From Alphaproteobacteria bacterium (lineage in GTDB: Bacteria > Pseudomonadota > Alphaproteobacteria > UBA7887), in NCBI GenBank assembly GCA_965216755.1, contig CBDCGL010000011.1:3328001-3392000 (forward strand): a stretch of DNA of 64,000 nt, given 5' to 3'. The stretch's first letter is position 1. Every line of letters begins with the position of its first letter. The notes beneath the pieces were generated by a model that worked only from the letters and a program-made list of their open reading frames with translations, was not told where the DNA came from and did not search any database. A program made the translations under genes and the position numbers. Below, piece after piece: positions 5,157 to 59,894 of this stretch.

Positions 5157-5171
5157 TAAGGACGTGACACG

Positions 5172-8462: not shown

Positions 8463-8468
8463 GGCGTT

Positions 8469-12378: not shown

Positions 12379-12514
12379 GGTCGGGACGTTTTTTGGGATC
12401 CGCTGTTTGGTGCGGCGAAGGGCGAAGTTGGTCCAGAATATAGAGGCCACACCGGTGAAGACAACGCCGCTTTGCGGGCGCCGAGTCGGACGCGCGCGAG
12501 CTTTTGTTTGAAGC

Positions 12515-12667: not shown

Positions 12668-13807
12668 ATGATACCCAGCTCGCAAACAACCTATGTTCGG
12701 CAAACGCCATTGCCGGCAACGGGTGCGCCGTGGCCGCGTCGCGCGGCGACCGACTTGTGGCGGCATTTCGTCCGGCGCCTCTATCGGAGCCCGCGTTTGG
12801 CGGTGACCGAGGCCGACGTGGTGCAGGCCGCGCGGCCGCGCGATGTCGGGGCGGAAAGCATCAATATTTGCAATGCCCGGTGCACGTTTTGCGGCTATGG
12901 CAAGGGGCCTGACGGCAAGGCCGCGGACGCGCGGCGCAAGGGCAAGTTATCCGCGGACGTGTTTCGTCACACTTTGCGGCTTTACTCTGCCGCGGGCGGC
13001 GGTGTCTTCGCCCTGTCGCCGATCTTGGGTGAAGTGTCGGCGGACCCGCGCTGGCTCGACATGGTGCGCGAGGCGCGCAGCTTCGACAACATCACCGGTG
13101 TCAGCTGTTTCACCAATGCCATCCTCCTGCATCGCTTCGGCGCCGATGCCATCGTCACCGCGGGCATCACCCATATGGCGTTGTCAACCTCGCTTGGCTC
13201 GGCGGAACAGTACCGGCGGCTCTATGGGGTCGACAAATATGATCAGGTGGTGGCCAACATTCTGGACCTGTTGCGTGCCAACCAGCGCCATGGCGCGCCG
13301 GTCGATATCAGCATTCATTTGCGCATCGACAAGCCGTTTTCGAGATTCTTTCGCTCGGACATTTATGCCGAACTGCTGAAATATGTGCCGGCGTCGCGTA
13401 TTCAAATCTTGGATGATGGCTGGGACGATTTCAAAGGCCTGATTGGTTCGGACGGCCTGCCCGGTGGTCAACAGTTCAAGGTTCAATATCCAGACAAATC
13501 TGTGCCGTGCTATGCGATTTATAGAAAGTTGCAGGTGCTGAAGGACGGCACGATCCAAGGCTGTTCGTGCCGGATCGAACCCGATCTGTGGGTCGGCAAC
13601 ATCATGGACTTTGACAGCATGGAAGCGGCGTGGCGCAACCCGGCCTTTGAAGCGCTGCGGGCAAACTGGCATGCGGGCACGATCCCAAACAGCTGCAAGA
13701 ATTGTAGCCATTACGAGCCCTACACCAATTTGCTGCGCGCGGCACGACCCGTCACCGTGGCACGGGCGATTGTCGGCAAGCTCAAACGCGTGCTGGGACG
13801 GGCCTGA
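12668..13807 (+). CDS. Radical SAM protein with SPASM/Twitch domain
   Basis: CNARCTFC (CxxxCxxC); C-terminal PC...DGTIQGCSC...VGNI...CKNC. Confidence 0.85.
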   Translation: MIPSSQTTYVRQTPLPATGAPWPRRAATDLWRHFVRRLYRSPRLAVTEADVVQAARPRDVGAESINICNARCTFCGYGKGPDGKAADARRKGKLSADVFRHTLRLYSAAGGGVFALSPILGEVSADPRWLDMVREARSFDNITGVSCFTNAILLHRFGADAIVTAGITHMALSTSLGSAEQYRRLYGVDKYDQVVANILDLLRANQRHGAPVDISIHLRIDKPFSRFFRSDIYAELLKYVPASRIQILDDGWDDFKGLIGSDGLPGGQQFKVQYPDKSVPCYAIYRKLQVLKDGTIQGCSCRIEPDLWVGNIMDFDSMEAAWRNPAFEALRANWHAGTIPNSCKNCSHYEPYTNLLRAARPVTVARAIVGKLKRVLGRA

Positions 13808-14434
13808 ATGGCGCGCGAACCGACCGCGCGCGACGGTCGCGAACAAGCGATTGTTCGCGAAGTTCTTGAACGGATCGACGAATCGCAAGAGATCAGTCAG
13901 CGGCAATTGGCCTCGGATTTGGGGATCGCCTTGGGCATGGCCAACGCCTATATCAAGCGCTGCATTCGCAAGGGCTGGATCAAGGTCAACGAGGCGCCGG
14001 CCCGCCGCTATCGCTATTACCTGACGCCAAAAGGGTTCGCCGAAAAAAGCCGACTGACGGCGCAATACTTTTCTGATTCCCTGCGTTTTTTCGGCCGCGC
14101 CCGGCAAAGTTACGATGCCTTGTTCGCGCAATTGGTGCGGCGCGGCGCGCGCCGCGTGGTGCTGTGCGGTGCCGATGAGCTGACTGAAATCGCGGCACTG
14201 TGCGCCCTGAAACACGATGTTAAGGTGGTCGGCGTGCTGCGCGGCGATGGGCGCGATGATCCGCTTGCCGGGCTACCGGCGATCGGCGAAGCATCTGCGG
14301 GCAATGTCGACTATTGGGTGATCGCCAGCTCCAGCGACGCCGCGCCGCTCTATACGCGAATTGGCGCCGCCAAAGGGCTTGATCATGTTGCCTATCCAGA
14401 GCTGTTGCGCCGGGTGGTGGGCGCGGCGCAATGA
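13808..14434 (+). CDS. Winged-helix MarR-like regulator (EPS-associated type) with C-terminal Rossmann-like domain
   Basis: SQRQLASDLGIALGMANAYIKRCIRKG, YYLTPKGFAEK; C-terminal VVLCGADE. Confidence 0.85.
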   Translation: MAREPTARDGREQAIVREVLERIDESQEISQRQLASDLGIALGMANAYIKRCIRKGWIKVNEAPARRYRYYLTPKGFAEKSRLTAQYFSDSLRFFGRARQSYDALFAQLVRRGARRVVLCGADELTEIAALCALKHDVKVVGVLRGDGRDDPLAGLPAIGEASAGNVDYWVIASSSDAAPLYTRIGAAKGLDHVAYPELLRRVVGAAQ

Positions 14435-15564
14435 GCGTGCCATCTGCGCGGCGGCCCTTGCACATGTTTGAACCCGATTTGGGTGATGCCGAAGAGCAGG
14501 CGGTCGTGGCGGTTTTGCGGTCTGGCTGGGTTGCCATGGGGCCCAAGGTCGAGGCCTTTGAAGAACGATTTGCTGCGTTGACCGGGTCCGGCCACGCGGT
14601 TGCAGTGGGGTCGTGTACCGCCGCCCTACATTTGACCAATCTGGCCCTGGACATCGGACCAGGCGACGACGTGATCGTGCCGTCGCTGACCTTCGCGGCG
14701 ACCGCCAACGCCGTCCACATGACCGGCGCGACCCCGGTGTTCGCCGATGTTGTCGGGCCTGACGATTGGACGATCTCCGCCGATGACGTGGCGCGAAAAT
14801 TGACCGACCGGACGCGGGCGGTCATCGCCATGCATTATGCTGGCCACGCGGCTGACATGGATCGCCTGGCGGCGGTGTGCCAAAAGGCTGATGTCGACTT
14901 GATCGAAGACGCCTGCCACGGTCTGGGTGGGCAGCTTGGTGATCGCGCGCTCGGCGCCATCGGTCGAGCCGGATGTTTTAGTTTCTATAGTAATAAATTG
15001 ATCACCACCGGCGAGGGCGGCATGGTGACCACCGATGACCAAGCGCTGGCGGAACGGATCAAACGCTTGCGTTCGCACGGCATGACCGCGACGGCGATCG
15101 ATCGCGTGCGCGGTGCCATGATCTATGACGTGACCGAACCTGGCCTCAACTATCGTCTGGATGACCTGCGCGCGGCCCTGGGCCTGGCACAGTTGGATCG
15201 GATCAATGACAAATTGGCCCGTCGGCACGAATTGGTCGCCCGATACGAGTCGCGCTTGGCGGTTATGGACGGCGTCGCAACGCCCGATTGCGGCCGGCGC
15301 GGTCGCTCGGCCCACTATCTGATGCCGGTGCGGCTGACGCAAGCCGATCGTGATGCGGTGCGTCGCCGATTGCAGGCCGATGGCATTCAAACGTCGGTGC
15401 ATTACCGCCCGGTCCATCAATTTGCACACTATCGTGATCAGGCCACACCTTTGCCGCTGACCGAGGACATCGGCGCCAAGACTCTCAGTTTGCCACTCTA
15501 TCCAAGCATGACTTTGGACCAAGTCGACCGCGTCTGTGACGCCCTGGCCGAGGCCGCGGGATAA
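14431..15564 (+). CDS. DegT/DnrJ/EryC1/StrS PLP sugar aminotransferase
   Basis: SCTAALHL, TFAATANA, IEDACH, FSFYSNKLITTGEGG. Confidence 0.92.
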   Translation: MSVPSARRPLHMFEPDLGDAEEQAVVAVLRSGWVAMGPKVEAFEERFAALTGSGHAVAVGSCTAALHLTNLALDIGPGDDVIVPSLTFAATANAVHMTGATPVFADVVGPDDWTISADDVARKLTDRTRAVIAMHYAGHAADMDRLAAVCQKADVDLIEDACHGLGGQLGDRALGAIGRAGCFSFYSNKLITTGEGGMVTTDDQALAERIKRLRSHGMTATAIDRVRGAMIYDVTEPGLNYRLDDLRAALGLAQLDRINDKLARRHELVARYESRLAVMDGVATPDCGRRGRSAHYLMPVRLTQADRDAVRRRLQADGIQTSVHYRPVHQFAHYRDQATPLPLTEDIGAKTLSLPLYPSMTLDQVDRVCDALAEAAG

Positions 15565-15588
15565 ATCGTCGAGGCACCCGTAAATCGC

Positions 15589-16185
15589 GTGTTGGTATTT
15601 GGCTATAGCGTCGAAGCGATGGTCCTGTTGCGCGGCTTGGGTCATCATGTGGTTGCCGTCGCCGATCCGATACCGCGAGCGGCGCACGCGCGCCCGGCGG
15701 CCGATGACGCGCTTGTTTGGCATGACGATGACGACGCCGCGCTGGCCGCGGGCGGCTTTGATCGGGTTGCCGTGATGATCGACGATCCGACGGCGCGCGC
15801 GCGGGTGCATGGCAGGCTTGCTGCCCGTGATTTGGCACCGCTGGACGTCGTCGCCGGCATCGTCGACGCGGGCGTTGACCACGGGCCCGGGTTGTGTGTG
15901 CAACGCTTGGCCAATGTTTCGGCCGGCACAAGCTTTGGCGCCGGCGGCCGGCTCAATATCGGCGCGAATGTCATGCATGATTGCCGGATCGGTGATTTCG
16001 TCACCGTCGCCCCGGGGGCCGTTGTGCTGGGCCATGTGACGATCGGCGCACAAAGCTATATCGGTGCCAATGCAACCATATTGCCGACGCGCACAATCGG
16101 TGACGGTTGCGTGGTCGGTGCCGGCGCGGTGGTCACCCGTGACGTGCCCGACGGCGCCGTTGTCAAAGGCAACCCGGCGCAATGA
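15589..16185 (+). CDS. NeuD/PglD-type hexapeptide sugar acetyltransferase
   Basis: MHDC catalytic His, hexapeptide repeats, GAGAVVTRDV...GNPA. Confidence 0.85.
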   Translation: MLVFGYSVEAMVLLRGLGHHVVAVADPIPRAAHARPAADDALVWHDDDDAALAAGGFDRVAVMIDDPTARARVHGRLAARDLAPLDVVAGIVDAGVDHGPGLCVQRLANVSAGTSFGAGGRLNIGANVMHDCRIGDFVTVAPGAVVLGHVTIGAQSYIGANATILPTRTIGDGCVVGAGAVVTRDVPDGAVVKGNPAQ

Positions 16186-17174
16186 CGCACCTGATCCAGG
16201 CGTGCGACGTTTTGTTTGTCGTCGATGCGTCGGCGGATGTTGGGTTCGGCCACGCCGCGCGGTGCTTGCACCTGGCAGATCTGGTGCGGCAGCGCCGGCC
16301 GCGCGCAGGTATCGCGTTTCAGGGGTCATTCACCGATGCGGCGCAGGTGCGCATCGCCAGGGCCAAGATTGACATTGTCGCGACAGACCATCGCGTTAAC
16401 GCGCCGATTTGTTTCGTCGATCGATTGGCCACGCCGGACAACGCGGACATTTGTGATCCGGCGCAAATTCGTGACCTGCAACAACGCTGTGGCCGGGTGG
16501 TCTACATGGCGTCTGGTGTCCGGGCACCAGAGCTTCCTGACGGCGTGATCTGTATCGGTTATCAACCAGGCGGGCCACCTGAGCGGCCGCCGTGGCTTTT
16601 GTGGGGGTGGCGCTTTGCGCCAGTGCCCGAGGGGTTTTCGCGGTTGGCTGAAACCCCGCCTGAGCACGGGTCGGTGCTGATCGCGCTCGGCGGTGGCGCG
16701 GACGCGGCCACGCTGCGCCGCGTTGTCGACGCTGTGCGCGCGACGGACCAGGCTGCAAAGATCGATATTCTGGGGTCGCCGGTATGGCGGAGCGATCTTG
16801 TGGACGCGATCGGCGCAGACCGGATTTTGTGGCACAAAGATGTGCCCGACGTGCGCCCCTTGTTGGCGGGCGCAGCGTTGGTCGTTGCCAGCCAGGGCAA
16901 CTTTGCCTATGAAGCGATGGCCGCCGCGCGACCGTTGGTAATTCTGGGGCTCAAGGCATTTCAAGCCAATATCGGGCATCGTCTGGCTGAGGCCGGCCTT
17001 GCGGTCTATGGCGGCACCGGTACGGCACAAGACAGTGCGCGTTTGGCGTCGGCGTTGGCGCGGGGTCGTGCAGACGCGGCGGCGTTGCGCGCGACCATGC
17101 GCGAGACGATTGATGATCGGGGCTTTGTGCGCATCGCCGATCAACTTCTGGAAGATCGTAGGGTGACCGTGTGA
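16182..17174 (+). CDS. PseG/SpsG-like UDP-sugar hydrolase (GT-B fold), divergent
   Basis: DASADVGFGHAARC motif, LIALGG, AYEA. Confidence 0.7.
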   Translation: MTHLIQACDVLFVVDASADVGFGHAARCLHLADLVRQRRPRAGIAFQGSFTDAAQVRIARAKIDIVATDHRVNAPICFVDRLATPDNADICDPAQIRDLQQRCGRVVYMASGVRAPELPDGVICIGYQPGGPPERPPWLLWGWRFAPVPEGFSRLAETPPEHGSVLIALGGGADAATLRRVVDAVRATDQAAKIDILGSPVWRSDLVDAIGADRILWHKDVPDVRPLLAGAALVVASQGNFAYEAMAAARPLVILGLKAFQANIGHRLAEAGLAVYGGTGTAQDSARLASALARGRADAAALRATMRETIDDRGFVRIADQLLEDRRVTV

Positions 17175-17875
17175 CGGCGTCGGTGGTCGCGGTTATTCAG
17201 GCGCGCATGGGATCGAAACGATTACCTGGCAAAGTGCTGGCGCCGCTGGCTGGCGCGCCTCTGCTGCAGCACTTGGTCGCGCGGGTGCGGCGTTCCCGGC
17301 GCCTTGACGACGTGGTTGTCGCGACCAGCGATCAGGCCGCGGACGATGCCATCACCGCGCTGTGCGCGACACTTGGCGTCGCGTGTTTTCGCGGCAGTGA
17401 ATGGGATGTCTTGGATCGGGTGTTGGCGGCGGCGGGCAACGCCGAGATCGTTGTGCGGTTGACGGCCGACAATCCGTTCGTTGATGGCGCCTTGATTGAT
17501 TATGTGTTGGCCGCGGCGCTGCCGACCATGCCGCCGGCGGTCTATGCCAGCAATATTGCGTGCGGCGACTTCCCGGTGGGACTCTATGTGGAGGTCGCCG
17601 CCAAAGCGGCGTTGCTGGTGGCCGCTGAGAGTAGCGATCCCGCCGATCGTGAACATGTCACCTGGTATTTGCGCCGCCAACCTGAACGATTTCCGGCGAC
17701 CGATGTTGGCGCGCCAGGCCGGTTTCCCGATATGCCGCTGACCATCGACACGGCGGCGGATCTCACAAGGGTCGGCGGGTTGTTCGCCGCGTTCCATGGC
17801 CGCGATCCGAACTTCAATTATCGCGATCTTATGGCCCTGGCCATACCCAAACAGGAAAGGCAAGCGGCGCCATGA
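17171..17875 (+). CDS. SpsF-type cytidylyltransferase (CMP-NulO synthetase-like)
   Basis: IQARMGSKRLPGKVL, RGSEWDVLDR, RLTADNP, REHVT, LTIDT. Confidence 0.85.
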   Translation: MTASVVAVIQARMGSKRLPGKVLAPLAGAPLLQHLVARVRRSRRLDDVVVATSDQAADDAITALCATLGVACFRGSEWDVLDRVLAAAGNAEIVVRLTADNPFVDGALIDYVLAAALPTMPPAVYASNIACGDFPVGLYVEVAAKAALLVAAESSDPADREHVTWYLRRQPERFPATDVGAPGRFPDMPLTIDTAADLTRVGGLFAAFHGRDPNFNYRDLMALAIPKQERQAAP

Positions 17876-18879
17876 CCGATGCGCTGATGATTAGCCAAAC
17901 AAAGATTGGTGACGGTGCGCCACCCTATTTGATCGCCGAAATCGGCATCAATCACGGTGGCGACGTTGGTTTGGCGGCGCGCATGATCAAAGAGGCGCGG
18001 GCTGCTGGCGCCCAGGCCGCCAAGTTGCAAGCGTTCCGCACCGCTGCTTTGGTGGCGCGCACCAGCCCCTATTTTCAGGTGCTTGACGATGCCGCGCTCA
18101 GCAAATCGGCGTTGGCGCAACTGGTGGGAGTCGCGCGCGACGCGGGCGTTGCCATGTTCGCCTCTGTCTTCGATGAAGACAGTGCAGACACCATGGCGGA
18201 TCTGGATGCGCCGGCGTTCAAGATCGCGTCCGGCGACATCAACCATTTGCCCCTGTTGCGCCATGTCGCGGCGTTCGGACGGCCAATGATCATCTCGACC
18301 GGCGGCGCGACCATGGGTGATATCGAACGCGCGCTGTCGGCCGTGTCCCAAGGCGGCGCTGCGCCCGTGGCGTTGCTGCATTGTGTGTCGCACTATCCGA
18401 CTCCGGCGGCGCAAGCCAATTTGGCTTGCTTGCCGACCATCAAGGCGCAGTTCGGTGTCCCGGTTGGCTTTTCCGATCACACAATGGGCGAAGCGGTGGC
18501 CCTGGCGGCCGCCGCGTTGGGCGCCGACATCATCGAGAAACACTTCACCTTCGATCGCGACGCGCCGGGCCCGGACCATGCCTTGTCGTCGGATCCGGCC
18601 GGTTTGACGCGCTTGGCTGAAGGGCTGCAGACGGTTTGGCAAGCGGTCGGCCACAGTCAAAAAATGCCGGTCGAGACCACAGATCACGTCACTCAAATTC
18701 GCCGCTGTGTCACGGCGGACGTGGCCATCCCGGCAGGCACCGAGGTTCGCGCCGACATGCTGGCGGTGAAACGGCCGGGCACGGGTCTCGCGCCGGACGC
18801 CCGCGACCTGGTGGTCGGCCGCCGCGCGCGCCAAGACATCCCGGCCGAAACCGCCATCGACTGGTCTATGATCGATTGA
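17872..18879 (+). CDS. neuB: Nonulosonic acid synthase (NeuB family), copy 1
   Basis: IAEIGINHGG, KIASGD, LHCVSHYP, GFSDHT, IEKHFT, GPDH; SAF domain KRPGTG. Confidence 0.92.
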   Translation: MTDALMISQTKIGDGAPPYLIAEIGINHGGDVGLAARMIKEARAAGAQAAKLQAFRTAALVARTSPYFQVLDDAALSKSALAQLVGVARDAGVAMFASVFDEDSADTMADLDAPAFKIASGDINHLPLLRHVAAFGRPMIISTGGATMGDIERALSAVSQGGAAPVALLHCVSHYPTPAAQANLACLPTIKAQFGVPVGFSDHTMGEAVALAAAALGADIIEKHFTFDRDAPGPDHALSSDPAGLTRLAEGLQTVWQAVGHSQKMPVETTDHVTQIRRCVTADVAIPAGTEVRADMLAVKRPGTGLAPDARDLVVGRRARQDIPAETAIDWSMID

Positions 18880-19508: not shown

Positions 19509-19514
19509 GAACCT

Positions 19515-30827: not shown

Positions 30828-30849
30828 CGGCCGGCCTGTTAGGAAATCC

Positions 30850-35613: not shown

Positions 35614-35631
35614 CCGCATGGAGCCTTAGGC

Positions 35632-37212: not shown

Positions 37213-37247
37213 CGTTAGTCCCCGATGCGATCCCTGGAGCATAAACT

Positions 37248-39301: not shown

Positions 39302-39314
39302 TCTCGTCATCGCC

Positions 39315-42237: not shown

Positions 42238-42239
42238 CC

Positions 42240-46439: not shown

Positions 46440-46556
46440 ACCTTTGCATGTTGCGCTGCCGCAAATCCTCTGGGCAATTTGGTCGGGACCGAGTAGGGTG
46501 CGCGGCTGTCCGATGACTTATTTGTCTAGTCAGAGCCGTCGAAGAGGATTGTCAGC

Positions 46557-47477: not shown

Positions 47478-47501
47478 GCGCGATCCGTCAATCAACCTGA
47501 A

Positions 47502-51515: not shown

Positions 51516-52081
51516 ACGCCGCACGGATTCATCCGACCGCCGTGGTTGCCGATGAGGCCGTTATCGGCGACGGGACGCGGGTTTGGCATTTTAGCCATAT
51601 CATGGCCGGCGCCCGCATCGGCGCGCGCTGCGTCATTGGCCAAAACGTGATGGTCGCGGCCGGTGTCAGGGTTGGCGATGGATGCAAACTACAGAACAAT
51701 GTTGCGCTTTATGCAGGCGTTGAACTGGAAGACGACGTGTTCTGCGGTCCCAGCATGGTGTTCACCAATGTGTTGACGCCACGCGCGTTCGTCGACCGCA
51801 AACAGGAATTTGCCACCACGCGCGTCTGCCAAGGCGCCACGATAGGTGCCAATGCAACCGTTATCTGTGGCGTGACCATCGGCCGCTTCGCGATGATTGG
51901 CGCCGGTGCGGTGGTCACCAAGGATGTGTCCGCCTATCAACTGGTTGTCGGCAACCCGGCCCACCCGGCCGGCTGGGTGAGCCGTACCGGCGATCGTCTC
52001 GGCGACGATCTGGTCTGTCCACGCACGGGCGCGCGTTATCGTCTCGACGATGGCGTTCTCTCGCCTCTATCCACCGACTGA
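51512..52081 (+). CDS. wbpD: WbpD/WlbB-like N-acetyltransferase
   Basis: VWHFSH, GQNV, QNNV, FCGPSMVFTNV..PR, GNPA...GW. Confidence 0.85.
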   Translation: MNAARIHPTAVVADEAVIGDGTRVWHFSHIMAGARIGARCVIGQNVMVAAGVRVGDGCKLQNNVALYAGVELEDDVFCGPSMVFTNVLTPRAFVDRKQEFATTRVCQGATIGANATVICGVTIGRFAMIGAGAVVTKDVSAYQLVVGNPAHPAGWVSRTGDRLGDDLVCPRTGARYRLDDGVLSPLSTD

Positions 52082-52082
52082 A

Positions 52083-53228
52083 ATGGGACCGCATATGGTG
52101 GCCGACCCGATTCCCTTTGTTGATCTGAAAGCCCAATATGCGGCTTTGAAACCGACGATCGATCAGGCCATTCAAACGGTGCTCGATCACGGCCGCTTCA
52201 TCTTGGGGCCGGAAGTTGCCACCTTGGAACGTGCGTTGGCCGAATTCAGTGGTTGCGATCATGTCGTCACCGTCGCCAACGGCACCGATGCGCTGATCAT
52301 TGCTTTGCTGGCCGAGGGCGTCGGGCCGGGCGACGCGGTCTTTCTACCCGCCTTTACATTTCCGGCGACCGCCGAGGCCCCGCTTCTGCTGGGCGCGACA
52401 CCTGTGTTTGTCGATGTGTGCGCGGATAGCTTCAATATCGACCCGGTCGATTTGACGCAAAAAGTGGGCGCCGTGGCCGCCGGCGGCCGTTTCAAGCCGC
52501 GCGCCGTCATCGCGGTCGATTTGTTTGGACACCCGGCCGATTATGCGGCGATCAACCAAGTGGCTGTTGAGCATGGTTTGTTTGTGCTGGCCGATGCCGC
52601 GCAAAGCTTTGGCGCCCGGTGCGGTCACACACAGGTCGGCCGTTTGGCGTCCGCCACGGCCACCAGTTTTTTTCCCGCCAAACCGTTGGGTTGCTATGGC
52701 GATGGCGGCGCGCTGTTGACCGAAGACCCAGATCGCGCCGCGGCATATCGCGCGATCCGCGTTCATGGGGCTGGCCGTGAAAAGTATGAAATCGCACGGC
52801 TCGGTATGAATAGCCGCTTGGATAGTCTGCAAGCCGCGATTTTGTTGGCCAAACTCAAGGTCTATGACGCGGAATTGCGACGTCGTGATGAAATTGCCAA
52901 GCGCTATGACGCGGCGCTTGGCGATGTGGTCAAATTGCCGCCCCGCGCCACTGGAGTCGCGGGCGCGTGGGCGCAATACACGATCCGCGTTGACGACCGT
53001 GACGACCTGGCCACGCGTTTGCGCGATGTGGGCATCCCGACGGCGATCTATTACCCGGCTCCCCTGCACATGCAAAAGGCGTATGCTAGTTTTGGCGGCG
53101 GCCCTGGCAGTTTACCGGTCAGCGAACATTTGGCACGGCATGTGCTGAGCTTGCCGATGCATGCCTATTTGAAAGCCGCGACGCAACAACGCATTATCGA
53201 TGGCATTCGTGACGCGGCGCATCGGTAG
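52083..53228 (+). CDS. wbpE: WbpE/WlbC-like DegT aminotransferase
   Basis: FVDLKAQY, NGTDAL, DAAQSFGA, SFFPAKPLGCYGDGG, NSRLD; start 52083 or 52095. Confidence 0.82.
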   Translation: MGPHMVADPIPFVDLKAQYAALKPTIDQAIQTVLDHGRFILGPEVATLERALAEFSGCDHVVTVANGTDALIIALLAEGVGPGDAVFLPAFTFPATAEAPLLLGATPVFVDVCADSFNIDPVDLTQKVGAVAAGGRFKPRAVIAVDLFGHPADYAAINQVAVEHGLFVLADAAQSFGARCGHTQVGRLASATATSFFPAKPLGCYGDGGALLTEDPDRAAAYRAIRVHGAGREKYEIARLGMNSRLDSLQAAILLAKLKVYDAELRRRDEIAKRYDAALGDVVKLPPRATGVAGAWAQYTIRVDDRDDLATRLRDVGIPTAIYYPAPLHMQKAYASFGGGPGSLPVSEHLARHVLSLPMHAYLKAATQQRIIDGIRDAAHR

Positions 53229-53372
53229 CGACATTGCGTTACGTGTACCGCGCGTCACGGCCAAGTTCCGATCTGCACGTTGGGCGTAAAGGGTTGTCGG
53301 CCTTGGCTATTTCGGGGTGACACAGCGGCTTGCATTCGATGTGCTCAACTTTGCCGGCGGCGGCGCGGCGGG

Positions 53373-54320
53373 TCAGGAGTTTGGCTTGGTGGCGACCAAG
53401 ACGCAGCCGCTGACGGCCAGGTCTTCGTCGCGCAATGGTCGCAGCGACGCCGCCAATCGCGGCCGAATCGTGCGCACCGCCGCCAACGCGAGGGCGCGCT
53501 TATCGGCATCGATGTCGCCCCATCGCGCCGGTGGCAGTTCGTCAGGCACGCCGGCCAACCGGGTAATGCGCAGCGATCCATGCAAACCACTGTGTTCGAG
53601 CCATTGGCGCCATGCTGGCCACAACACCCGGTTGGGGCGCCCCGCGCCACGGGTCATCGCCGTATAGAGCCGATCCGTGACGGTAAGAAAAGTCAGCGGA
53701 TGGCGGCCGGCAAACATGCCGTGGTCGCGCATGTCGATGCGATGGACGAGCGTGCCGCCGGGCTGCAAGGCCTTGGCCATATGGTCCAGCGCCGCCAGCG
53801 GATCATAGAGGTGCTCCAGAACGGCGCGCGACAATATCGCCGCGAACGGTTCCGGCGGTCGGAGAAAAAACGCTTCCGCCGGTATGCCATCGTGATAGTG
53901 CAAATTTCTGATCGTTGTTTCATCGGGCGGCCCGTCGAACAAATCGGGACGCCCCATCCGCTGTGCCAAGGCCACGTAAATCGGCCGTTGGCGCGCGCTG
54001 TCGCGCGCCGGCCGGTAACGATCTATGGCATGAACCGTCGTCGCACCGCCGGCGAGCAGCATTGTGGCGACGCCGAAATTGTCGCCGGGCCCGATTTCGG
54101 CCACCGCACCGGTGAAACGCGTACGGTCGGCATAGGCCAGATAGTCGCCGTAAACCCGCTCGATGTAGGTTAGCGACGCCGCAACGTCCAAATCCGCGTG
54201 GCGGGTCCCGGATCGGGTGGTCAAGCGGCCATGCGCCAAGCGTCGGCGCGCGCGCCAGTCGTCAACCAGATAGGCGGCGCAGGTCAACGCAATGCTGCGC
54301 CGGATCAGCGTTCGGATCAT
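53373..54320 (-). CDS. Class I SAM methyltransferase
   Basis: EIGPGD, SRAVLEH, LQPGG..H.ID.RDH, NR; start moved to ATG 54320. Confidence 0.8.
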   Translation of the reverse strand: MIRTLIRRSIALTCAAYLVDDWRARRRLAHGRLTTRSGTRHADLDVAASLTYIERVYGDYLAYADRTRFTGAVAEIGPGDNFGVATMLLAGGATTVHAIDRYRPARDSARQRPIYVALAQRMGRPDLFDGPPDETTIRNLHYHDGIPAEAFFLRPPEPFAAILSRAVLEHLYDPLAALDHMAKALQPGGTLVHRIDMRDHGMFAGRHPLTFLTVTDRLYTAMTRGAGRPNRVLWPAWRQWLEHSGLHGSLRITRLAGVPDELPPARWGDIDADKRALALAAVRTIRPRLAASLRPLRDEDLAVSGCVLVATKPNS

Positions 54321-54487
54321 GGCTCGGTTCTCGGCGGCATCTTGATTCTGTGTGACATGGGCGGAAGCCGATCTACAAACACGCAAAATGTGACAACGCG
54401 TCGGGCCTTTGCGCAGTGAAATCGGAGCGACAGGTGGACCGCCCGGGCGCACCGGTCACGCAACCGGCGGCCTGTCGCCGTGATGCC

Positions 54488-55576
54488 ATGGACGCCGGGC
54501 CGGTCGATGTCATGCATGTCGTCACCGGTCTCGATATTGGCGGCGCCGAGCATCAATTGACCTTGCTTGCCGAGGCAAACATACGCGCCGGCAGGCGTGT
54601 CCGCGTGGTCAGCCTGTTGGCCGGCGGCGACTATCGCGCGCGGTTGGAACACGCCGGCGTCGCGATCACAGACCTCGGCATGCGCCGCGGTCGCCCGTCG
54701 CTCACGGCCTTGACGCGGCTCATCGGACTGATCCGTCGGCAGCGGCCCAAGGTGCTGCAAAGTTGGTTGTATCATGCCGACCTCTATGCGACGACCGCGC
54801 TGCTGTTGTCGGGACGGCGCCGGCGCACGCGGCTGCTGTGGTGCGTGCGCTGTTCCGATATGGATGCCACCCGCTATGGCGCGCCGCTGCGCCTGGTCAT
54901 GGGCTTGTGCGCGGCTTTGTCGCGCGTCCCCGATGCGATCATCGCCAATGCCGTTGCCGGGCGCGACGCCCACCGCCAGCGCGGTTATCGCGCCCGATCA
55001 TTTCCGGTCATCGCCAATGGTATCGACACCGACATTTTTCGTCCGGATCCTGTGGCCCGTGCCGCGGTGCGCGCGCAATTGGGCATCGACGCCACGGTGC
55101 CCGTGTTGGTGCATGTGGCCCGCGTCGATCCGATGAAGGATCACGCGACATATCTTGCCGCGCTCGATCGCATGCCAAACATCATCGGACTGGCGATCGG
55201 CGACAACACGCGAAATCTGCCCGATCATCCACGATTGCGGCGCCTCGGCGCGCGCACCGATGTTGCGCGGCTGATGGCCGCGGGCGATGTGATTGTCTCC
55301 AGTTCCGCCTTTGGCGAGGGGTTTTCGAACGCGATTGCGGAAGGCATGGCGACGGGCTTGCCGGCCGTAGCGACCGATGTCGGTGACACGGCCATGATTG
55401 TCGGCGACTGCGGGCGGGTGGTGGCGCCAGGTGATCCGGTCGCCCTCGCCGACGCGGTGACGGCTCTTTTGGGCGACGATCCGGCTGCACTGGGGGCGCG
55501 TGCGCGCCACCGCATCAAGGCGCAATTCGGCATTGCCGCCATGGTCGCGGCCTACGATGAAATAGCTACGGTCTGA
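54488..55576 (+). CDS. Glycosyltransferase family 4
   Basis: GGAE, WLYHA, IANGID, PMKDH, EGFSNAIAEGM, TDVGD. Confidence 0.9.
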   Translation: MDAGPVDVMHVVTGLDIGGAEHQLTLLAEANIRAGRRVRVVSLLAGGDYRARLEHAGVAITDLGMRRGRPSLTALTRLIGLIRRQRPKVLQSWLYHADLYATTALLLSGRRRRTRLLWCVRCSDMDATRYGAPLRLVMGLCAALSRVPDAIIANAVAGRDAHRQRGYRARSFPVIANGIDTDIFRPDPVARAAVRAQLGIDATVPVLVHVARVDPMKDHATYLAALDRMPNIIGLAIGDNTRNLPDHPRLRRLGARTDVARLMAAGDVIVSSSAFGEGFSNAIAEGMATGLPAVATDVGDTAMIVGDCGRVVAPGDPVALADAVTALLGDDPAALGARARHRIKAQFGIAAMVAAYDEIATV

Positions 55577-55579
55577 CCC

Positions 55580-57487
55580 ATGTGCGGGCTGGCGGGGTTT
55601 GTCGATCTGGGTGGTTTGGACACGGATTTGATATTACCGAGGATCGACGCGGCGGTTGCGCGGTTGCGGCCGCGCGGACCGGACGGCGAGGGGCGTTGGC
55701 ACGACCACTATTGCGCGCTGGGTCATACCCGCCTGGCGATCATCGATCTCAGTTCAAATGGCGCCCAGCCCATGGCCGGCCATGGCGGCGTGATCGTCCA
55801 CAATGGCGAGGTCTACAACCATCAGTCCCTGCGCGCGGATCTCGCGCGGGCTGGACACCGCTTCCGCAGTCGCTCCGACACCGAAGTATTGCTGGCCGGT
55901 TGGCGTCACTGGCATGACGACCTTTTCGACCGTCTGCGCGGCATGTTCGCGTTTGCCTTGTGGGATCCGAATCGCCGCGCACTGGTGTTGGTGCGCGATC
56001 GTTTCGGAAAGAAACCTTTGTTGTTTTGGCATGCCAATAACCGCTTGGCGTTCGCGTCTGACTTGGTGGCCCTGGATCACGTACGTGGCGAACGCGCGCC
56101 GATCGATCCTGTGGCGTTGCGGCTGTTGTTTACATTGCGTTTCTTGCCCGACCCGGTCGCCATGCGCGCGGGTGTACAGAAACTGCCGCCGGGCCATCTG
56201 GCTATCTTCACAGAAGATGGCTTGACGATGCGCCGGTGGTATCAGGGCCCGGACACAACTGCGGCGACCGAGCCCGACGTGGCGGCAGATCAGGCATTGA
56301 AGGCCGATTTTGACAGCGCGGTGGCGGACCGGCTGGTGGCCGACGTGCCGGTCGGGGTTTATTTGTCGGGCGGTATCGATTCGGCGCTGGTCGCTGCCTC
56401 GGTGGTCGCGCAAGGTGCGCCGGCGCGCAGCTTCACGGTCGGTTTTCGCGGGGCGGCGGCCTATTTCGAAGAACGACCGGCGGCCGCTCATGTCGCGCGT
56501 CATCTGGGTTGTGACCACACCGAAGTCGAAGTCGGTGCCGACGACGCATTGGCCGCCATGGATGCCGTGTTCGAGGGTTTGGATGAACCGTTCGGCGATT
56601 CATCGGCCCTACCCAGCTATGTGCTGGCGCGGGCAACCCGGGGTCATGTCAAAGTTGTTTTGTCCGGCGATGGCGCCGACGAAGTGTTTGGTGGTTATCG
56701 CCGCTATCGGGCCGAACTCTATGCAGACGCGTATCGACGATGGCCGGGCTGGCTCCGCCATGGCGTCATCGAACCGCTTGTCGGCGTTTTGCCCGAGAGT
56801 AAGACCTCGCCGCTATTGGAGCATGCGCGCCGCTTGCGGCGGTTCGTTGCCCATGGCGCCAAGCCCGCCGCGGCCCGGCAAGCTGGGTTCTATCGGCTGC
56901 TTGATGAAACGGCCCTCGACCAGCTGCTGGGGCCGGCCGAGTCGGTGCCGTTGATCGAACAGACGATGGCGGGGTTGCGCGCGTCAGCGGGCACAGACGA
57001 CTCGATAAACGCCATGTTGGCCGCCGATATCGCGTTGGTTTTGCCGTCCGATATGCTGGTCAAGGTCGACCGCATGAGCATGGCCAATAGTCTAGAGGTG
57101 CGTTGCCCGTTTCTCGATCACCGCGTGGTCGCGCGCGCGGCCGGGCTGCCCGGGCACCGCAAGGTCTCGCGGCACGGCCTGAAACGGGTCTTGCGCGAGG
57201 CATTTGCCGACCGCTTGCCGGCGGCGGTGTTTCGACGACCGAAAAAGGGCTTTGAACTGCCCATCGCCGAATGGTTGACCGGCCCATTGGCCGAGCGCAC
57301 CCGCGCCGCCATTGATCCCGGGCGCCTGCGCCGCCAGGGCTTGTTCAATCCAAAGCTACCGAACGATTGGTATGATGATCTGGTTGCCCGGCGCCGTGAC
57401 ATGTCGGAGGCCCTGTGGACTTTGGTCGCGTTTCAGGCCTGGTGCGACCACCATGACTCGCACGCCACCGCCGTCGCCGCGCAGTGA
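55580..57487 (+). CDS. asnB: Glutamine-hydrolysing asparagine synthase-like amidotransferase (glycan amidation)
   Basis: MCGLAG, RGPD, RLAIID, NGE.YN, SDTE, LSGGIDS, SGDGADE, KVDR.SM. Confidence 0.93.
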   Translation: MCGLAGFVDLGGLDTDLILPRIDAAVARLRPRGPDGEGRWHDHYCALGHTRLAIIDLSSNGAQPMAGHGGVIVHNGEVYNHQSLRADLARAGHRFRSRSDTEVLLAGWRHWHDDLFDRLRGMFAFALWDPNRRALVLVRDRFGKKPLLFWHANNRLAFASDLVALDHVRGERAPIDPVALRLLFTLRFLPDPVAMRAGVQKLPPGHLAIFTEDGLTMRRWYQGPDTTAATEPDVAADQALKADFDSAVADRLVADVPVGVYLSGGIDSALVAASVVAQGAPARSFTVGFRGAAAYFEERPAAAHVARHLGCDHTEVEVGADDALAAMDAVFEGLDEPFGDSSALPSYVLARATRGHVKVVLSGDGADEVFGGYRRYRAELYADAYRRWPGWLRHGVIEPLVGVLPESKTSPLLEHARRLRRFVAHGAKPAAARQAGFYRLLDETALDQLLGPAESVPLIEQTMAGLRASAGTDDSINAMLAADIALVLPSDMLVKVDRMSMANSLEVRCPFLDHRVVARAAGLPGHRKVSRHGLKRVLREAFADRLPAAVFRRPKKGFELPIAEWLTGPLAERTRAAIDPGRLRRQGLFNPKLPNDWYDDLVARRRDMSEALWTLVAFQAWCDHHDSHATAVAAQ

Positions 57488-58611
57488 AGGTTCTCCAACT
57501 GAGCGCGGTTGACTTTACCGTTACCCGGTTTTTGCTGCCTCTTATCACGCGCCTGCAAGACGCCGGCCACGAGGTAGTCGTCGCCTGCGCCGACGGGCCG
57601 CTATTGGCCCCGGTGCGCGCAGCCGGTGTGGCCGTGGCGCCGGTCCCATTCAGCCGCCACATCGGTGCGCTGGCTAGCCATTGGCGGGCATTTCGCATGC
57701 TGGTCGCACTCATGCGTCGCGAGCGATTTGACATCGTCCACGTGCACACGCCGTTGGCGGCCTTTATCGGTCGGCTGGCTGCCTGGCGGGCCGGTGCCCC
57801 GTGCATCGTCTATACGGCCCACGGCTTTTACTTTCACGATCGCATGGGGCGCTGCCGGTGGGCCGTCTTTGTCGCCTTGGAATGGTTGGCGGGGCGGGTC
57901 ACCGACGTGTTGTTCACACAATCTCTGGAAGACGCCGCCGTCGCCCGGCGCTATCACCTGTGCCGCGGCGCAACGATCGAGGCGATCGGCAATGGCGTCG
58001 ATCCGAACACATTCTATCCCGAGACCGACGAAAAGACACGGTGCGCCACCCGGGGTGCCGTCGGCAGCCGTCCCGGTCGGTGCGTGATTGCGGTGATCGG
58101 TCGTTTGGTGGCGGAGAAGGGGTATCCCGAATTGTTTCGCGCCATCAAACATGTCGATGCGGATTTGTGGGTGATCGGCGCGCGATTGGAAAGTGATCAC
58201 GCCGCCGGCATCGATCACGCTTTGGTCCAACTGGAGTCCGATCCCGATCTCAACGCACGGGTGCATGTGTTGGGCGCGCGCGACGACGTGCCCAACTTGC
58301 TGCGCGCCGCCGATTTGTTTGTGCTGCCGTCCCACCGCGAAGGCATGCCGCGCTCGATCATCGAGGCGATGATGACCGGCCTGGCGGTGGTGGCGACCGA
58401 CATCCGGGGCAGCCGCGAAGAAGTGGTCGATGGCGAGACCGGGTTCTTGGTGCCGGTCGACGACGCTATCGCGCTGGCCGAGGCCCTCAATCGCCTGGTG
58501 GCGGACTCAGATTTGCGCGCGGCAATGGGAGCCGCGGGTTACGCCCGGGCGCGGGCACTTTACGACGAAGCTACGGTTATTGACCGGCAAATGGAGATCC
58601 TCCGTCTATAG
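57484..58611 (+). CDS. Glycosyltransferase family 4 (CapM-like)
   Basis: HVHTP, YTAHGF, GRLVAEKG, REGMPRSIIEAM. Confidence 0.9.
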   Translation: MKVLQLSAVDFTVTRFLLPLITRLQDAGHEVVVACADGPLLAPVRAAGVAVAPVPFSRHIGALASHWRAFRMLVALMRRERFDIVHVHTPLAAFIGRLAAWRAGAPCIVYTAHGFYFHDRMGRCRWAVFVALEWLAGRVTDVLFTQSLEDAAVARRYHLCRGATIEAIGNGVDPNTFYPETDEKTRCATRGAVGSRPGRCVIAVIGRLVAEKGYPELFRAIKHVDADLWVIGARLESDHAAGIDHALVQLESDPDLNARVHVLGARDDVPNLLRAADLFVLPSHREGMPRSIIEAMMTGLAVVATDIRGSREEVVDGETGFLVPVDDAIALAEALNRLVADSDLRAAMGAAGYARARALYDEATVIDRQMEILRL

Positions 58612-58648
58612 GGCTCAAATCAATGCGCCAAGGATGAAAAGGAATTTC

Positions 58649-58671
58649 AGGGCCGCCGCGCGGCCCTTTTT
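58649..58671 (+). terminator. Intrinsic terminator hairpin
   Basis: AGGGCCGC-cgc-GCGGCCCT followed by a T-run, between convergent GT4 and pseC. Confidence 0.7.
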
Positions 58672-59894
58672 CATAGGTTCAATGCCGCGGCCAGGGCGAC
58701 GACGACGCGGTCGACATCGCTGTCGGCCATGGCCGGAAAGAGAGGCAAACTCAAAGCCCGATCATAATAGGTATGGGCGCCGGGCAGAACCGCCGCGCCA
58801 TATAGCCGGCGGTAGTAAGGGTGCAGGTGTACCGGCATGTAATGCACCATGGTGCCGATTCGGGCGTCGCGCAGCGTGCGCATCACGTGGCCGCGCTCGA
58901 TCCCAAGGGCGGCGAAATCGATCAGGGCCACATAGAGGTGCCAGGCTGGACGGCAGTCCGCGACGCGCGTGAGCGGCCGCACATGGGGGCCGAAGCGCGC
59001 CAATGCCGCGTCGTAGCGGTTCGCCAACGCGGCGCGGCGCGCGACAAAACGGTCCAATTTTCCGAGCTGGCTCAACCCCAACGCGCATTGCATGTCGGTG
59101 ACGCGATAGTTCCAGCCCAACTGATCGATCTCGTAGTACCAAGGATTCTCGCGACCACCGCTATCGAACGCCAGATCGGCCTGCTGCAGGGCGTCCGCAT
59201 CGCGCACCATGCCGTGATGGCGCAGGCGGCGCAGGGCCGCGGCGTGGGCCGCGTCATTGGTCGTCACCGCGCCGCCCTCCCCCATGGCAATGGTCTTGAC
59301 CGGGTGAAATGAAAACACGCTCAGGTCCGCGTGATGGCCGTCGCCAACCTGATGGACCGTGCTGTCACAGACATAGGCTGTACCGATGGCATGGGCGGCG
59401 TCCAGAATGACGGCCATATGGTGTTTGCGGGCGATCGCGGCGATGGCGGACAGGTCGCTCGCTTGGCCATTCAGTTGCACCGGCACAATCGCGCGGACCG
59501 GCGGGCCGCCGTCGCTGGCACTGCGGGCAATGGCCTCCGCCGCCGTTGTCGCCGTCATCAGACCAGTGTCCGGCGCGACATCGGCAAAGACGACGTCGGC
59601 GCCAACAAAACGCACGGCATTCGCTGTCGCGGCAAAAGTGAGTGTCGGCACGATGACCCGATCGCCGCGACCGATGCCGAGCGCAGCCATGGCCAAATGC
59701 AGGCCGGCAGTGCCGCTGGCGCAGGCGACCGCGTGTTCGGCTCCAACCTGGCTGGCTAAGGCGGCTTCGAACTGCGCCACCATCGGTCCGGTGGTCAGCC
59801 AATCGCCGCGCAACACAGCGACCACGGCGGCGATATCGTCGTCTTCGATGGTCTGGCGACCATAGGGCAGGAAATCAGGCGTGGGCGCGGCCAT
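58671..59894 (-). CDS. pseC: PseC aminotransferase
   Basis: LPYGRQTI, WLTTGP, FSFHPVKTI..GEGG, PWYYE...LGWNYR, VHYMP; start moved to ATG 59894. Confidence 0.9.
   Translation of the reverse strand: MAAPTPDFLPYGRQTIEDDDIAAVVAVLRGDWLTTGPMVAQFEAALASQVGAEHAVACASGTAGLHLAMAALGIGRGDRVIVPTLTFAATANAVRFVGADVVFADVAPDTGLMTATTAAEAIARSASDGGPPVRAIVPVQLNGQASDLSAIAAIARKHHMAVILDAAHAIGTAYVCDSTVHQVGDGHHADLSVFSFHPVKTIAMGEGGAVTTNDAAHAAALRRLRHHGMVRDADALQQADLAFDSGGRENPWYYEIDQLGWNYRVTDMQCALGLSQLGKLDRFVARRAALANRYDAALARFGPHVRPLTRVADCRPAWHLYVALIDFAALGIERGHVMRTLRDARIGTMVHYMPVHLHPYYRRLYGAAVLPGAHTYYDRALSLPLFPAMADSDVDRVVVALAAALNL

What the first reader, a model, noticed from the sequence alone, without database searches (positions are those of the whole stretch)
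12668..59894. One locus with three parallel nonulosonic-acid pathways plus sulfation and amidination: candidate new, heavily decorated glycan system
Seen: a 3:3:3 set of NeuB synthases (17872, 25900, 41200), cytidylyltransferases (17171, 32094, 43271) and NDP-sugar hydrolases (PseG-like 16182, NeuC 26919, PseG 38258). They fall into three consecutive modules, each with one large orphan GT-B-like ORF (22481, 35632, 39315). There are also three DegT aminotransferases besides the WbpE homolog (14431, 24731, pseC). Established: LegB/LegC/LegG/LegI/LegF/PtmE make CMP-legionaminate and PseB/C/H/G/I/F make CMP-pseudaminate; most loci hold one or two such pathways. Inference: the cell builds three different NulO sugars and modifies them with acetamidino, methyl, acyl and sulfate groups.
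Basis: partly seen in the sequence, partly recalled or inferred. Interest (0 to 1): 0.88.

Follow-up and report, generated by a model that had tools for sequence, protein, structure and literature searches.

The report
Three-pathway sialic-acid-like sugar locus
A bacterium keeps three separate gene sets for sialic-acid-like surface sugars in one cluster, which is uncommon but recurs, and one set uses an unstudied synthase with an altered active site plus extra tailoring enzymes, so it probably makes a sugar that has not been described.

Summary
There are three intact NeuB synthases (36-39% identical to each other), three cytidylyltransferases, three NDP-sugar hydrolases, four DegT enzymes, two amidination sets and three transferase-like orphans, mostly in one tightly packed run. 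The locus extends upstream to a PglF-type dehydratase and a WecA-like initiator. Three NeuBs in one locus is uncommon, not unique: 3 of 300 same-class genomes. NeuB2 is LegI-like. NeuB1 and NeuB3 fall in two separate non-PseI clades, each in a module conserved in another genus. NeuB3 is the unusual part. Its clade replaces proposed catalytic Glu134 with Leu or Gln (0 of 119 relatives keep an acid) and Phe112 with Gly or Ala. It has an ATP-grasp ligase directly downstream in 15 of 19 loci, against 1 of 173 other NeuBs. The cassette also carries PseB/C/G, a PIG-L deacetylase and a class-III aminotransferase fused to the cytidylyltransferase. Best reading: three differently decorated nonulosonates for a lipid-linked surface glycan, one a re-acylated, possibly extra-aminated pseudaminic-type sugar. 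All chemistry is inferred. New variant of a known kind.

The parts
3420..4316 (-). Aldo-keto reductase; candidate oxidase partner of the class-III aminotransferase
   Evidence: PF00248; homologs lie beside module-3 cassettes elsewhere; found with the aminotransferase in 6 of 15 loci vs 3 of 83 without it
5791..9266 (-). cysD, cysNC, cysQ: PAPS supply and PAP removal for sulfation
   Evidence: NCBIfam hits
9526..10545 (-). LegB-like 4,6-dehydratase for module 2
   Evidence: TIGR04180 366 bits, cut-off 475
11440..12450 (-). Sulfotransferase 2
   Evidence: PF13469
12668..13807 (+). Radical SAM/SPASM protein, role unknown
   Evidence: 57% homolog in the related locus of G324
13808..14434 (+). MarR-type EPS-associated regulator
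   Evidence: TIGR04176 below cut-off
14431..18879 (+). Module 1 core: DegT aminotransferase, NeuD-like acetyltransferase (15589), weak PseG-like hydrolase (16182), cytidylyltransferase (17171), NeuB1 (17872; Asp at the Glu134 position)
   Evidence: same order in G004 at 45-67% identity
18879..22484 (+). Module 1 tailoring: HisH, HisF, WbuX amidotransferase, methyltransferase
   Evidence: same order in G004 at 60-80%
22481..23683 (+). orfA: GT-B-fold protein, candidate NulO transferase
   Evidence: model pLDDT 93.6; Z 18.9 to UDP-GlcNAc 2-epimerase and 16.4 to polysialyltransferase; K255, H257, H283 kept in 90% or more of 130 aligned proteins
23680..28085 (+). Module 2 core: PtmE/LegX, LegC, NeuB2 (LegI-like, 25900), NeuC/LegG
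   Evidence: tree with NeuC/LegB/PtmE-context synthases
28082..29461 (+). orfB, 459 aa, unassigned
   Evidence: no significant Pfam or NCBIfam hit; no homolog in the fetched loci
29458..32804 (+). Module 2 tailoring and activation: HisF, HisH, WbuX, LegF/NeuA-like cytidylyltransferase (32094)
32801..34645 (+). MsbA/HepA/PglK-like ABC half-transporter, candidate flippase
   Evidence: all below cut-offs
34642..35613 (+). Sulfotransferase 1
   Evidence: PF13469 E 4e-20
35632..37212 (+). orfC: KpsS-like candidate ulosonate transferase
   Evidence: hhalign to E. coli KpsS E 2e-5; PF05159 in 7 of 17 family members; E 1e-18 to a PF05159 protein near a Klebsiella pseI
37248..39301 (+). Module 3 front end: PseB, PseG-like hydrolase (38258)
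   Evidence: TIGR03589 514 bits passes; TIGR03590 124 below cut-off
39315..41207 (+). orfD: candidate transferase tied to module 3
   Evidence: Atlas feature look-alikes carry LIC12162, Glyphos_transf and Capsule_synth families on part of their members; homologs near NeuB3-clade genes in 7 loci and in G196
41200..42237 (+). NeuB3: non-PseI synthase with Leu at the Glu134 position and Gly at the Phe112 position
42234..43274 (+). PylC-like ATP-grasp ligase coupled to the NeuB3 clade
   Evidence: PF15632 and PF21360; 15 of 19 vs 1 of 173; reciprocal search
43271..45295 (+). Cytidylyltransferase fused to a class-III aminotransferase (probable CTG start)
   Evidence: PF02348 + PF00202; same fusion in 6 other loci and G196
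45292..47477 (+). GNAT (weakly PseH-like), PIG-L de-N-acetylase (45765), FabH-like acyltransferase (46557)
   Evidence: PseH score 26 vs cut-off 93
47502..58611 (+). Two AsnB-like amidotransferases, three GT4s and WbpB/WbpD/WbpE-like genes: amino-uronate backbone module; a methyltransferase lies on the minus strand at 53373-54452
58671..59894 (-). PseC aminotransferase
   Evidence: TIGR03588 464 bits passes

Best explanation
The locus (about 62 kb, between purH and a heparinase-II/III-like gene) builds a lipid-linked surface glycan. A WecA/WbpL-like enzyme starts it, GT4s add amino-uronates, an ABC half-transporter flips it, and three CMP-nonulosonates are added by orfA, orfC and orfD. Shown: gene content, intact frames, separate synthase clades, conserved module order. 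Inferred: the chemistry and the acceptor. Module 2 follows the GDP route (PtmE, LegB, LegC, a borrowed acetyltransferase, LegG, LegI-like NeuB2, LegF) to an acetamidino-legionaminic acid. Module 1 (DegT, NeuD-like, PseG-like hydrolase, NeuB1) borrows a dehydratase, most simply the upstream PglF-type one, and adds an N-methyl-acetamidino group. Because a PseG-type hydrolase does not invert C2, its backbone may differ from Leg and Pse. Module 3 makes the L-altro precursor with PseB, PseC, the GNAT and PseG. PIG-L removes one N-acetyl and the ATP-grasp enzyme ligates another acid to the freed amine. NeuB3, with Phe112 and Glu134 replaced by Gly and Leu, accepts that altered hexose. The aldo-keto reductase and class-III aminotransferase either turn a free hydroxyl (C8 most likely) into an amine before CMP activation or make the acyl donor.
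For: Three NeuBs at 36-39% identity with E25, K53, Q55, K129, S132, S154, S213, H215, E234, H236 and D247 equivalents kept. Separate clades with bootstrap 100 (NeuB3), 88 (NeuB1) and 100 (PseI). Sister-copy trees rejected, p-AU 3e-9 and 5e-70. Three dehydratases and three non-Wbp DegT enzymes are available. Modules 1 and 3 are conserved in G004. The NeuB3 clade is fixed for non-acid 134 (L 101, Q 15, M 2, S 1 of 119) and small 112 (G 106, A 13) while metal and PEP residues stay invariant, which argues for selection, not decay. The ATP-grasp gene is directly downstream in 15 of 19 vs 1 of 173. A search run from the ATP-grasp side found G196, whose neighbour has the Leu motif and the window's gene order. 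The aminotransferase occurs with the reductase in 6 of 15 vs 3 of 83 loci. An 8-amino manno-nonulosonate exists in Flexibacter maritimus (PMC3210612).
Against: No chemical or expression data. Only two N-acetyltransferases serve three modules, and the GNAT is a very weak PseH match. Module 1's hydrolase scores only 53 bits and its dehydratase is not linked to it. Glu134 is a proposed catalytic residue (PMC8208679), so NeuB3 could be slow or need another partner. A non-acid residue there is not unique: 72 of 206 locus-derived NeuBs in my biased sample have one. orfA's best structural matches are 2-epimerases, not transferases. orfD has no fold evidence. Deep branches of the synthase tree are unresolved, so the tree does not predict the products. 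The T. maritimum O-antigen paper gave no gene link to the 8-amino sugar. TPR proteins beside the flagellins offer another acceptor route.
Confidence: 0.55

Rival explanations
1. Three modules but only two ordinary backbones. Module 1 is a UDP-linked, Sps-type route to legionaminic acid (or feeds on the PseB product and makes Pse), and NeuB3 is a divergent but ordinary Pse synthase. The cell then shows Leg and Pse with different N-substituents.
For: B. subtilis SpsM/C/D/G/E/F was reported to make Leg from UDP-sugars (PMC7439481, passages). SpsE is NeuB1's best PDB match, though also NeuB2's. PseB and PseC pass their cut-offs. A Vibrio cluster with an SpsF-aldo-keto-reductase fusion gave a PseAc2 mass (PMC7371886).
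Against: NeuB3 lacks the Phe of the PseI motif (41 of 46 PseI-clade sequences read KIASFE) and is coupled to a ligase that the PseI-clade loci lack. The Vibrio product differed from the M. viscosa PseAc2 in retention time and fragments.
Confidence: 0.3
2. The modules serve different acceptors. One or more CMP-NulOs go onto flagellin through FlmG-like TPR proteins beside the flagellin genes, and only part of the output goes on the flipped glycan.
For: Four flagellin-family matches. TPR proteins of 453-804 aa lie directly beside three of them, two with weak GT9-like C-terminal hits, E 0.09 and 0.28. FlmG is a TPR plus GT-B protein (PMC7591256).
Against: The GT9 hits are not significant and FlmG itself was not compared. 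The locus has one transferase-like orphan per module plus an initiator and a flippase-like transporter. No Maf-family match. This reading is compatible with the best one, not exclusive.
Confidence: 0.25
3. One or two synthases are redundant or decaying, so only one or two NulOs are made.
For: NeuB3 lacks Glu134; two acetyltransferases for three routes; no expression data.
Against: The Leu is fixed across a wide clade, the frames are intact, the modules are conserved in another genus, and sister-copy trees are rejected.
Confidence: 0.1

Closest known systems
C. jejuni CMP-legionaminic acid pathway (PtmE, LegB, LegC, LegH, LegG, LegI, LegF; amidination and methylation by PtmG/PtmH, recalled)
   Same: Module 2 has PtmE/LegX, LegC, LegG, a LegI-like synthase and LegF, with LegB nearby and a WbuX/HisH/HisF set.
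   Different: No LegH inside the module; LegB on the other strand 13 kb away; unassigned orfB; LegB, LegC and NeuB2 score below their curated cut-offs.
CMP-pseudaminic acid pathway (PseB, C, H, G, I, F)
   Same: PseB and PseC pass their cut-offs; PseG-like and weak PseH-like genes are present.
   Different: The synthase is not PseI (score, motif, tree). The cytidylyltransferase is of another type and fused to a class-III aminotransferase. ATP-grasp, PIG-L, FabH and reductase genes are added.
B. subtilis Sps pathway (SpsM, C, D, G, E, F; PMC7439481)
   Same: Module 1 has the same enzyme classes: DegT, acetyltransferase, hydrolase, synthase, cytidylyltransferase (SpsF-type label recalled).
   Different: NeuD-type rather than GNAT acetyltransferase, no dehydratase in the module, added amidination and methylation; orthology to SpsE not shown.
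Multi-synthase organisms: C. jejuni 11168 (three synthases) and Leptospira interrogans (two synthases, two CMP-synthetases and two aminotransferases in one cluster, PMC3438082 Table 1)
   Same: Several NulO routes in one genome or cluster.
   Different: Here a full 3:3:3 set lies in one locus and two of the three synthases are non-canonical.
Shewanella sfmABCDE (PMC3765264)
   Same: PseB/PseC front end with a non-PseI NeuB-domain protein and extra tailoring enzymes.
   Different: SfmA is 290 aa and comes with a TPP enzyme and a reductase; NeuB3 is 345 aa with a SAF domain and other partners. The sequences were not compared.
8-amino ulosonates: Flexibacter (Tenacibaculum) maritimus 8-amino manno-nonulosonate (PMC3210612) and Shewanella Kdo8N (KdnB/KdnA oxidation-transamination, recalled)
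   Same: A precedent for the product and for the chemistry proposed for the reductase and aminotransferase.
   Different: No gene link was found for the F. maritimus sugar; KdnA and KdnB belong to other enzyme families (recalled).
KpsS, KpsS1 (GT118) and WbbB (GT99) retaining ulosonate transferases (PMC12887879)
   Same: orfC aligns with E. coli KpsS over 86 columns and with PF05159 proteins beside pseI genes.
   Different: Similarity is limited to the C-terminal domain; donor and linkage unknown.

Membership tests
NeuB-family NulO synthase (all three) | PF03102 + SAF domain; metal His215/His236, Glu25/Glu234, PEP-binding Lys/Ser residues | tested here: met
NeuB-family NulO synthase (NeuB3) | Acidic residue at proposed catalytic position 134 | tested here: not met
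   Leu in NeuB3; 0 of 119 relatives acidic; NeuB1 has Asp and NeuB2 Glu
PseI (pseudaminic acid synthase) | TIGR03586 cut-off 340; Phe in the K-I-A-S-F-E motif; membership of the PseI clade | tested here: not met
   scores 255, 246, 222; Gly in all three; outside the bootstrap-100 PseI clade
CMP-Pse pathway (module 3) | PseB and PseC | tested here: met
   both pass their cut-offs
CMP-Pse pathway (module 3) | PseH, PseG and PseF orthologs | tested here: inconclusive
   PseH 26 of 93, PseG 124 of 154; the module-3 cytidylyltransferase is 23% identical to an annotated PseF
CMP-Leg pathway (module 2) | PtmE/LegX, LegB, LegC, LegG, LegI, LegF homologs | tested here: met
   homologs present; LegG passes its cut-off, LegB, LegC and NeuB2 fall just below; groups with LegI-context synthases at bootstrap 80
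CMP-Leg pathway (module 2) | Dedicated LegH N-acetyltransferase | tested here: inconclusive
   none in the module; the NeuD-like gene at 15589 could be shared
Any NulO pathway | Product identity and stereochemistry | not testable with these tools
   needs LC-MS and NMR
KpsS-like ulosonate transferase (orfC) | PF05159/KpsS C-terminal domain | tested here: inconclusive
   hhalign probability 77%, E 2e-5; 7 of 17 members hit PF05159 weakly and orfC itself does not
GT-B fold (orfA) | Two Rossmann-like domains | tested here: met
NulO transferase (orfA, orfD) | CMP-NulO transfer activity | not testable with these tools
   orfA's fold is shared with epimerases; the orfD model failed
FlmG flagellin glycosyltransferase (TPR genes elsewhere in the genome) | TPR plus FlmG-type GT-B domain | tested here: inconclusive
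   TPR clear, GT9 hits not significant; no direct comparison with FlmG

The most novel reading that the evidence does not exclude
Module 3 is an undescribed fourth kind of bacterial nonulosonate route. A synthase clade without catalytic Glu134 works with a dedicated ATP-grasp ligase, deacetylase and aminotransferase-cytidylyltransferase fusion to make an amino-acylated 5,7,8-triamino sugar, which would supply the missing genes for 8-amino nonulosonates. Module 1 makes a further epimer (5-epi-Leg or 8-epi-Pse type). One glycan would then carry three different backbones plus amidino, methyl and sulfate groups.
Probability: 0.2. Interest if true: 0.75.

Novelty: new variant of a known kind. Interest (0 to 1): 0.5.

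Why it matters
NulO products are routinely predicted as Neu, Leg or Pse from the synthase sequence. This locus holds two conserved synthase clades that fit none of these labels, and one has lost a residue thought to be catalytic while gaining a fixed ligase partner. That gives a small, testable enzyme set for how nonulosonates get unusual N-acyl or extra amino groups, and three candidate transferases for rare donors, which would be useful for glycoengineering. The three-in-one arrangement itself is a modest extension of what is known.

Tried and rejected
Single-sequence fold of orfD failed (pLDDT 34) and was not used. Profile searches of orfA and orfC against PDB sequences gave nothing significant. 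No Pfam or NCBIfam family fits orfB or orfD; orfB is not similar to PIG-L. orfA, orfC and orfD show no significant pairwise similarity, so they are not recent paralogs. The FastTree grouping of the NeuB3 clade with PIG-L-associated synthases was not recovered by IQ-TREE and is dropped. Recent mosaic transfer is not supported: GC 0.61-0.63 and GC3 0.70-0.71 in all three modules, and no long near-identical repeats in 9000-60000. The NeuB3 scan of genome contigs returned only distant relatives, 31-42%. The NeuB1 search of 400 class genomes found none at E 1e-80, and the viral scan only distant ones. DegT1's PDB matches at E 1e-50 or better are ArnB and perosamine-synthase types, which do not fix its product. 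A link between the T. maritimum O-antigen genes and its 8-amino sugar was not found in the passages, section 12 or the 4 supplementary files searched; the supplement store gave no answer, so other files may exist. The NeuB transition-state paper holds no E134 passage. No RNA holder was listed. Complex prediction for NeuB3 with the ATP-grasp protein was not available, so binding is untested. Two reviews that I wanted were not held in the library.

Full report
Observation. The three NeuBs are the only ones in a 5.0-Mb, 99.8%-complete genome. With starts that I chose, 28 of 36 junctions from 13808 to 53228 overlap and no frame is broken. A short-read contig covers 16500-36400 without a difference (possibly the source DNA), and three runs of the same study hold all sampled words of 36000-45500. 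The host is probably an alphaproteobacterium; this is inferred from the named close relatives of NeuB1 and NeuB3.

Extent. The locus is larger than the finding. Upstream of the window lie a PglF/WbpM-type dehydratase and a WecA/WbpL-like initiating transferase, then purH. Inside the window but before 12668 lie an aldo-keto reductase, cysD/cysNC/cysQ, LegB and a second sulfotransferase. The far end is pseC, a heparinase-II/III-like gene, rpe and rsmB. An initiator, GT4s, WbpB/D/E-like genes and an MsbA/PglK-like transporter point to an undecaprenyl-linked surface glycan (established pathway logic; acceptor inferred). The genome has LpxC and UDP-sugar dehydrogenases elsewhere. None of its 10 Wzy_C/ligase matches or 3 Wza matches is in this locus.

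How unusual is three? Of 300 same-class genomes at least 95% complete, 135 had a NeuB and 15 had three or more. In 3 of those 15 (G136, G191, G224) three lie within 45 kb on one contig (which also covered two family members). That is about 1%, a lower bound because most assemblies are fragmented; I did not check those loci for a full 3:3:3 set. In print, C. jejuni 11168 has three synthases, called a rare example (bioRxiv 2022.03.25.485807, passages). L. interrogans has two synthases and two CMP-synthetases in one cluster (PMC3438082, parts 1-2 of 5).

The synthases are not recent copies. Pairwise identity is 36-39%. In a 62-sequence IQ-TREE tree, taken from the 246, the NeuB3 clade has bootstrap 100, the NeuB1 clade 88 and the clade with annotated PseI proteins 100. 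NeuB2 sits with NeuC/LegB/PtmE-context synthases at 80, and deep nodes are unresolved. AU tests on 26 sequences reject NeuB1+NeuB3 and NeuB2+NeuB3 as sisters; the third pair was not run. G004, another genus of the family, has module 1 in the same order (45-80% identity) and NeuB3, ATP-grasp and the cytidylyltransferase (58-72%) on another short contig. Equal longest-contig lengths (82,095 and 486,304) suggest that NeuB1-type and NeuB3-type proteins share contigs elsewhere too (inference).

None is a PseI. TIGR03586 scores are 255, 246 and 222 against a cut-off of 340. A Gly/Phe position separates Neu and Leg synthases from Pse synthases (PMC7371886, parts 2-3 of 7). All three have Gly, while 41 of 46 PseI-clade sequences read KIASFE. 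So module 3 has a true PseB and PseC but a different synthase.

NeuB3. Against N. meningitidis NeuB, Glu134 is Leu and Phe112 is Gly. Glu134 is one of three proposed catalytic glutamates (PMC8208679, section 13). Among the 119 best-listed relatives (46-69% identical, of 770 hits), position 134 is L 101, Q 15, M 2, S 1 and position 112 is G 106, A 13, while K53, Q55, K129, S132, H215, E234, H236 and D247 equivalents are invariant. Against the uniqueness of this change, 72 of 206 locus-derived NeuBs in my sample have a non-acid residue there, most in other clades. An ATP-grasp gene lies directly downstream of 15 of 19 clade members with room on the contig (window included; 2 more sit at contig ends), against 1 of 173 other NeuBs (12 more at ends). 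Detection used the window's protein as query, so other ATP-grasp subfamilies are missed, and kin are not independent. As a reverse test, the ATP-grasp protein searched over 400 phylum genomes found one, G196. Its neighbour has the Leu motif, in the order PseB, PseG, PseC, orfD, NeuB3, ATP-grasp, fused cytidylyltransferase-aminotransferase, GNAT, PIG-L, amidotransferase. The cassette recurs in G110, G324 and several metagenome contigs. The clade is rare: 2 of 400 class genomes at E 1e-75. The class-III aminotransferase occurs with the reductase in 6 of 15 loci against 3 of 83 without it, among 98 loci of 15 kb or more.

Mechanism, inferred. A PIG-L deacetylase and a PylC-like amide ligase suggest swapping one N-acetyl for another acyl group, with the opened NeuB3 pocket accepting it. 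A reductase plus aminotransferase suggests turning a hydroxyl into an amine; fusion to the cytidylyltransferase suggests action on the free or activated nonulosonate. An 8-amino manno-nonulosonate is known from Flexibacter maritimus (PMC3210612 and PMC4052302, passages), but PMC9796276 (passages, section 12, 4 supplementary files) gave no gene link. The pair could instead make the acyl donor. For module 1, a PseG-type hydrolase leaves C2 unchanged (established), so a PglF-derived D-gluco or D-galacto precursor would give a 5-epi-Leg or 8-epi-Pse backbone. Against this, the B. subtilis Sps route was reported to give Leg from UDP-sugars (PMC7439481, passages). The WbuX/HisH/HisF sets and the methyltransferase match amidino and N-methylamidino tailoring (PseA, PtmG, PtmH; recalled). 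Only two N-acetyltransferases are available to three modules, so one must be shared or replaced. What the sulfotransferases modify is unknown.

Orphans. orfA folds confidently as GT-B (pLDDT 93.6 with 130 aligned sequences). Its best matches are UDP-GlcNAc 2-epimerases (Z 18.9, rmsd 4.3, 327 aligned), with polysialyltransferase at Z 16.4 (rmsd 6.1, 300 aligned), so the fold is shown and the function is not. orfC is KpsS-like and resembles PF05159 proteins near pseI in Klebsiella and Acinetobacter records; KpsS1 is a retaining Pse transferase (PMC12887879, passages). orfD resembles LIC12162/Capsule_synth-type clusters by language-model features and travels with NeuB3. The three are not detectably related to each other. 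TPR proteins beside the flagellins, two with non-significant GT9 hits, leave flagellin open as a second acceptor (FlmG architecture from PMC7591256, passages).

Novelty. Paper searches (listings only) showed no description of this synthase clade or cassette; the library lacks most subscription journals. Non-canonical Pse-like clusters are known in outline (Shewanella sfm, PMC3765264, passages), wide unmapped NulO diversity has been reported (PMC8157484, passages), and PseG, class-III aminotransferase and cytidylyltransferase genes sit together in Legionella LPS loci (PMC3694923, passages). Unchecked AI notes of this scan report ATP-grasp ligases in other NulO operons, which lowers the novelty of ATP-grasp acylation as such. 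Verdict: a real, intact locus and a new variant of a known kind. The headline of three pathways merits less than 0.88; the Glu134-less, ligase-coupled module is the part worth testing. Interest 0.5.

Noticed in passing
L195:8912-19972 and L196:585-4992 (G000:C11 about 2,164,900-2,181,000): Seven TPR proteins lie next to the flagellin genes: two with GT41 domains, two with weak GT9-like C-termini, three with unassigned C-termini. A possible flagellin glycosylation island apart from the NulO locus.
   Followed up: partly
window 28082-29461: orfB (459 aa) inside the Leg module has no family hit and no homolog in the fetched loci; His/Asp-rich motifs suggest a metal hydrolase (impression only).
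   Followed up: partly
window 12668-13807: A radical SAM/SPASM gene heads the operon; a 57% homolog lies beside WbpB/D/E in G324, and distant ones beside other aminotransferase-cytidylyltransferase NulO loci.
   Followed up: partly
window 1-5672 and L002:18871-20000: A PMT_2-family membrane transferase, a methyltransferase-GT2 fusion, an alpha/beta hydrolase, a DUF218 protein and an RfaH-like antiterminator lie in the left arm of the locus.
   Followed up: no
L120-L182 (many metagenome loci): A large NeuB clade with Trp at position 112 and Ser, Cys, Thr or Ala at 134, mostly without Pse or Leg neighbours: a second non-acid-134 group.
   Followed up: no
L088 (G224:C369), L083-L085 (G191:C7), L086-L087 (G136:C6): Other same-class loci with three NeuBs, with synthase types different from the window's.
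   Followed up: partly
P0210: A NeuB1-type synthase fused to a cytidylyltransferase (572 aa, named Magnetospirillum sp. by its source), which supports pairing NeuB1 with the 17171 enzyme.
   Followed up: no
window 42234 and 43271: Two consecutive genes appear to start with CTG in 4-nt overlaps; for 43271 the first ATG would cut off the conserved N-terminal motif.
   Followed up: partly
window 10639-11421: A lone GT8-like gene on the plus strand between LegB and sulfotransferase 2 (PF01501, E 8e-4).
   Followed up: no
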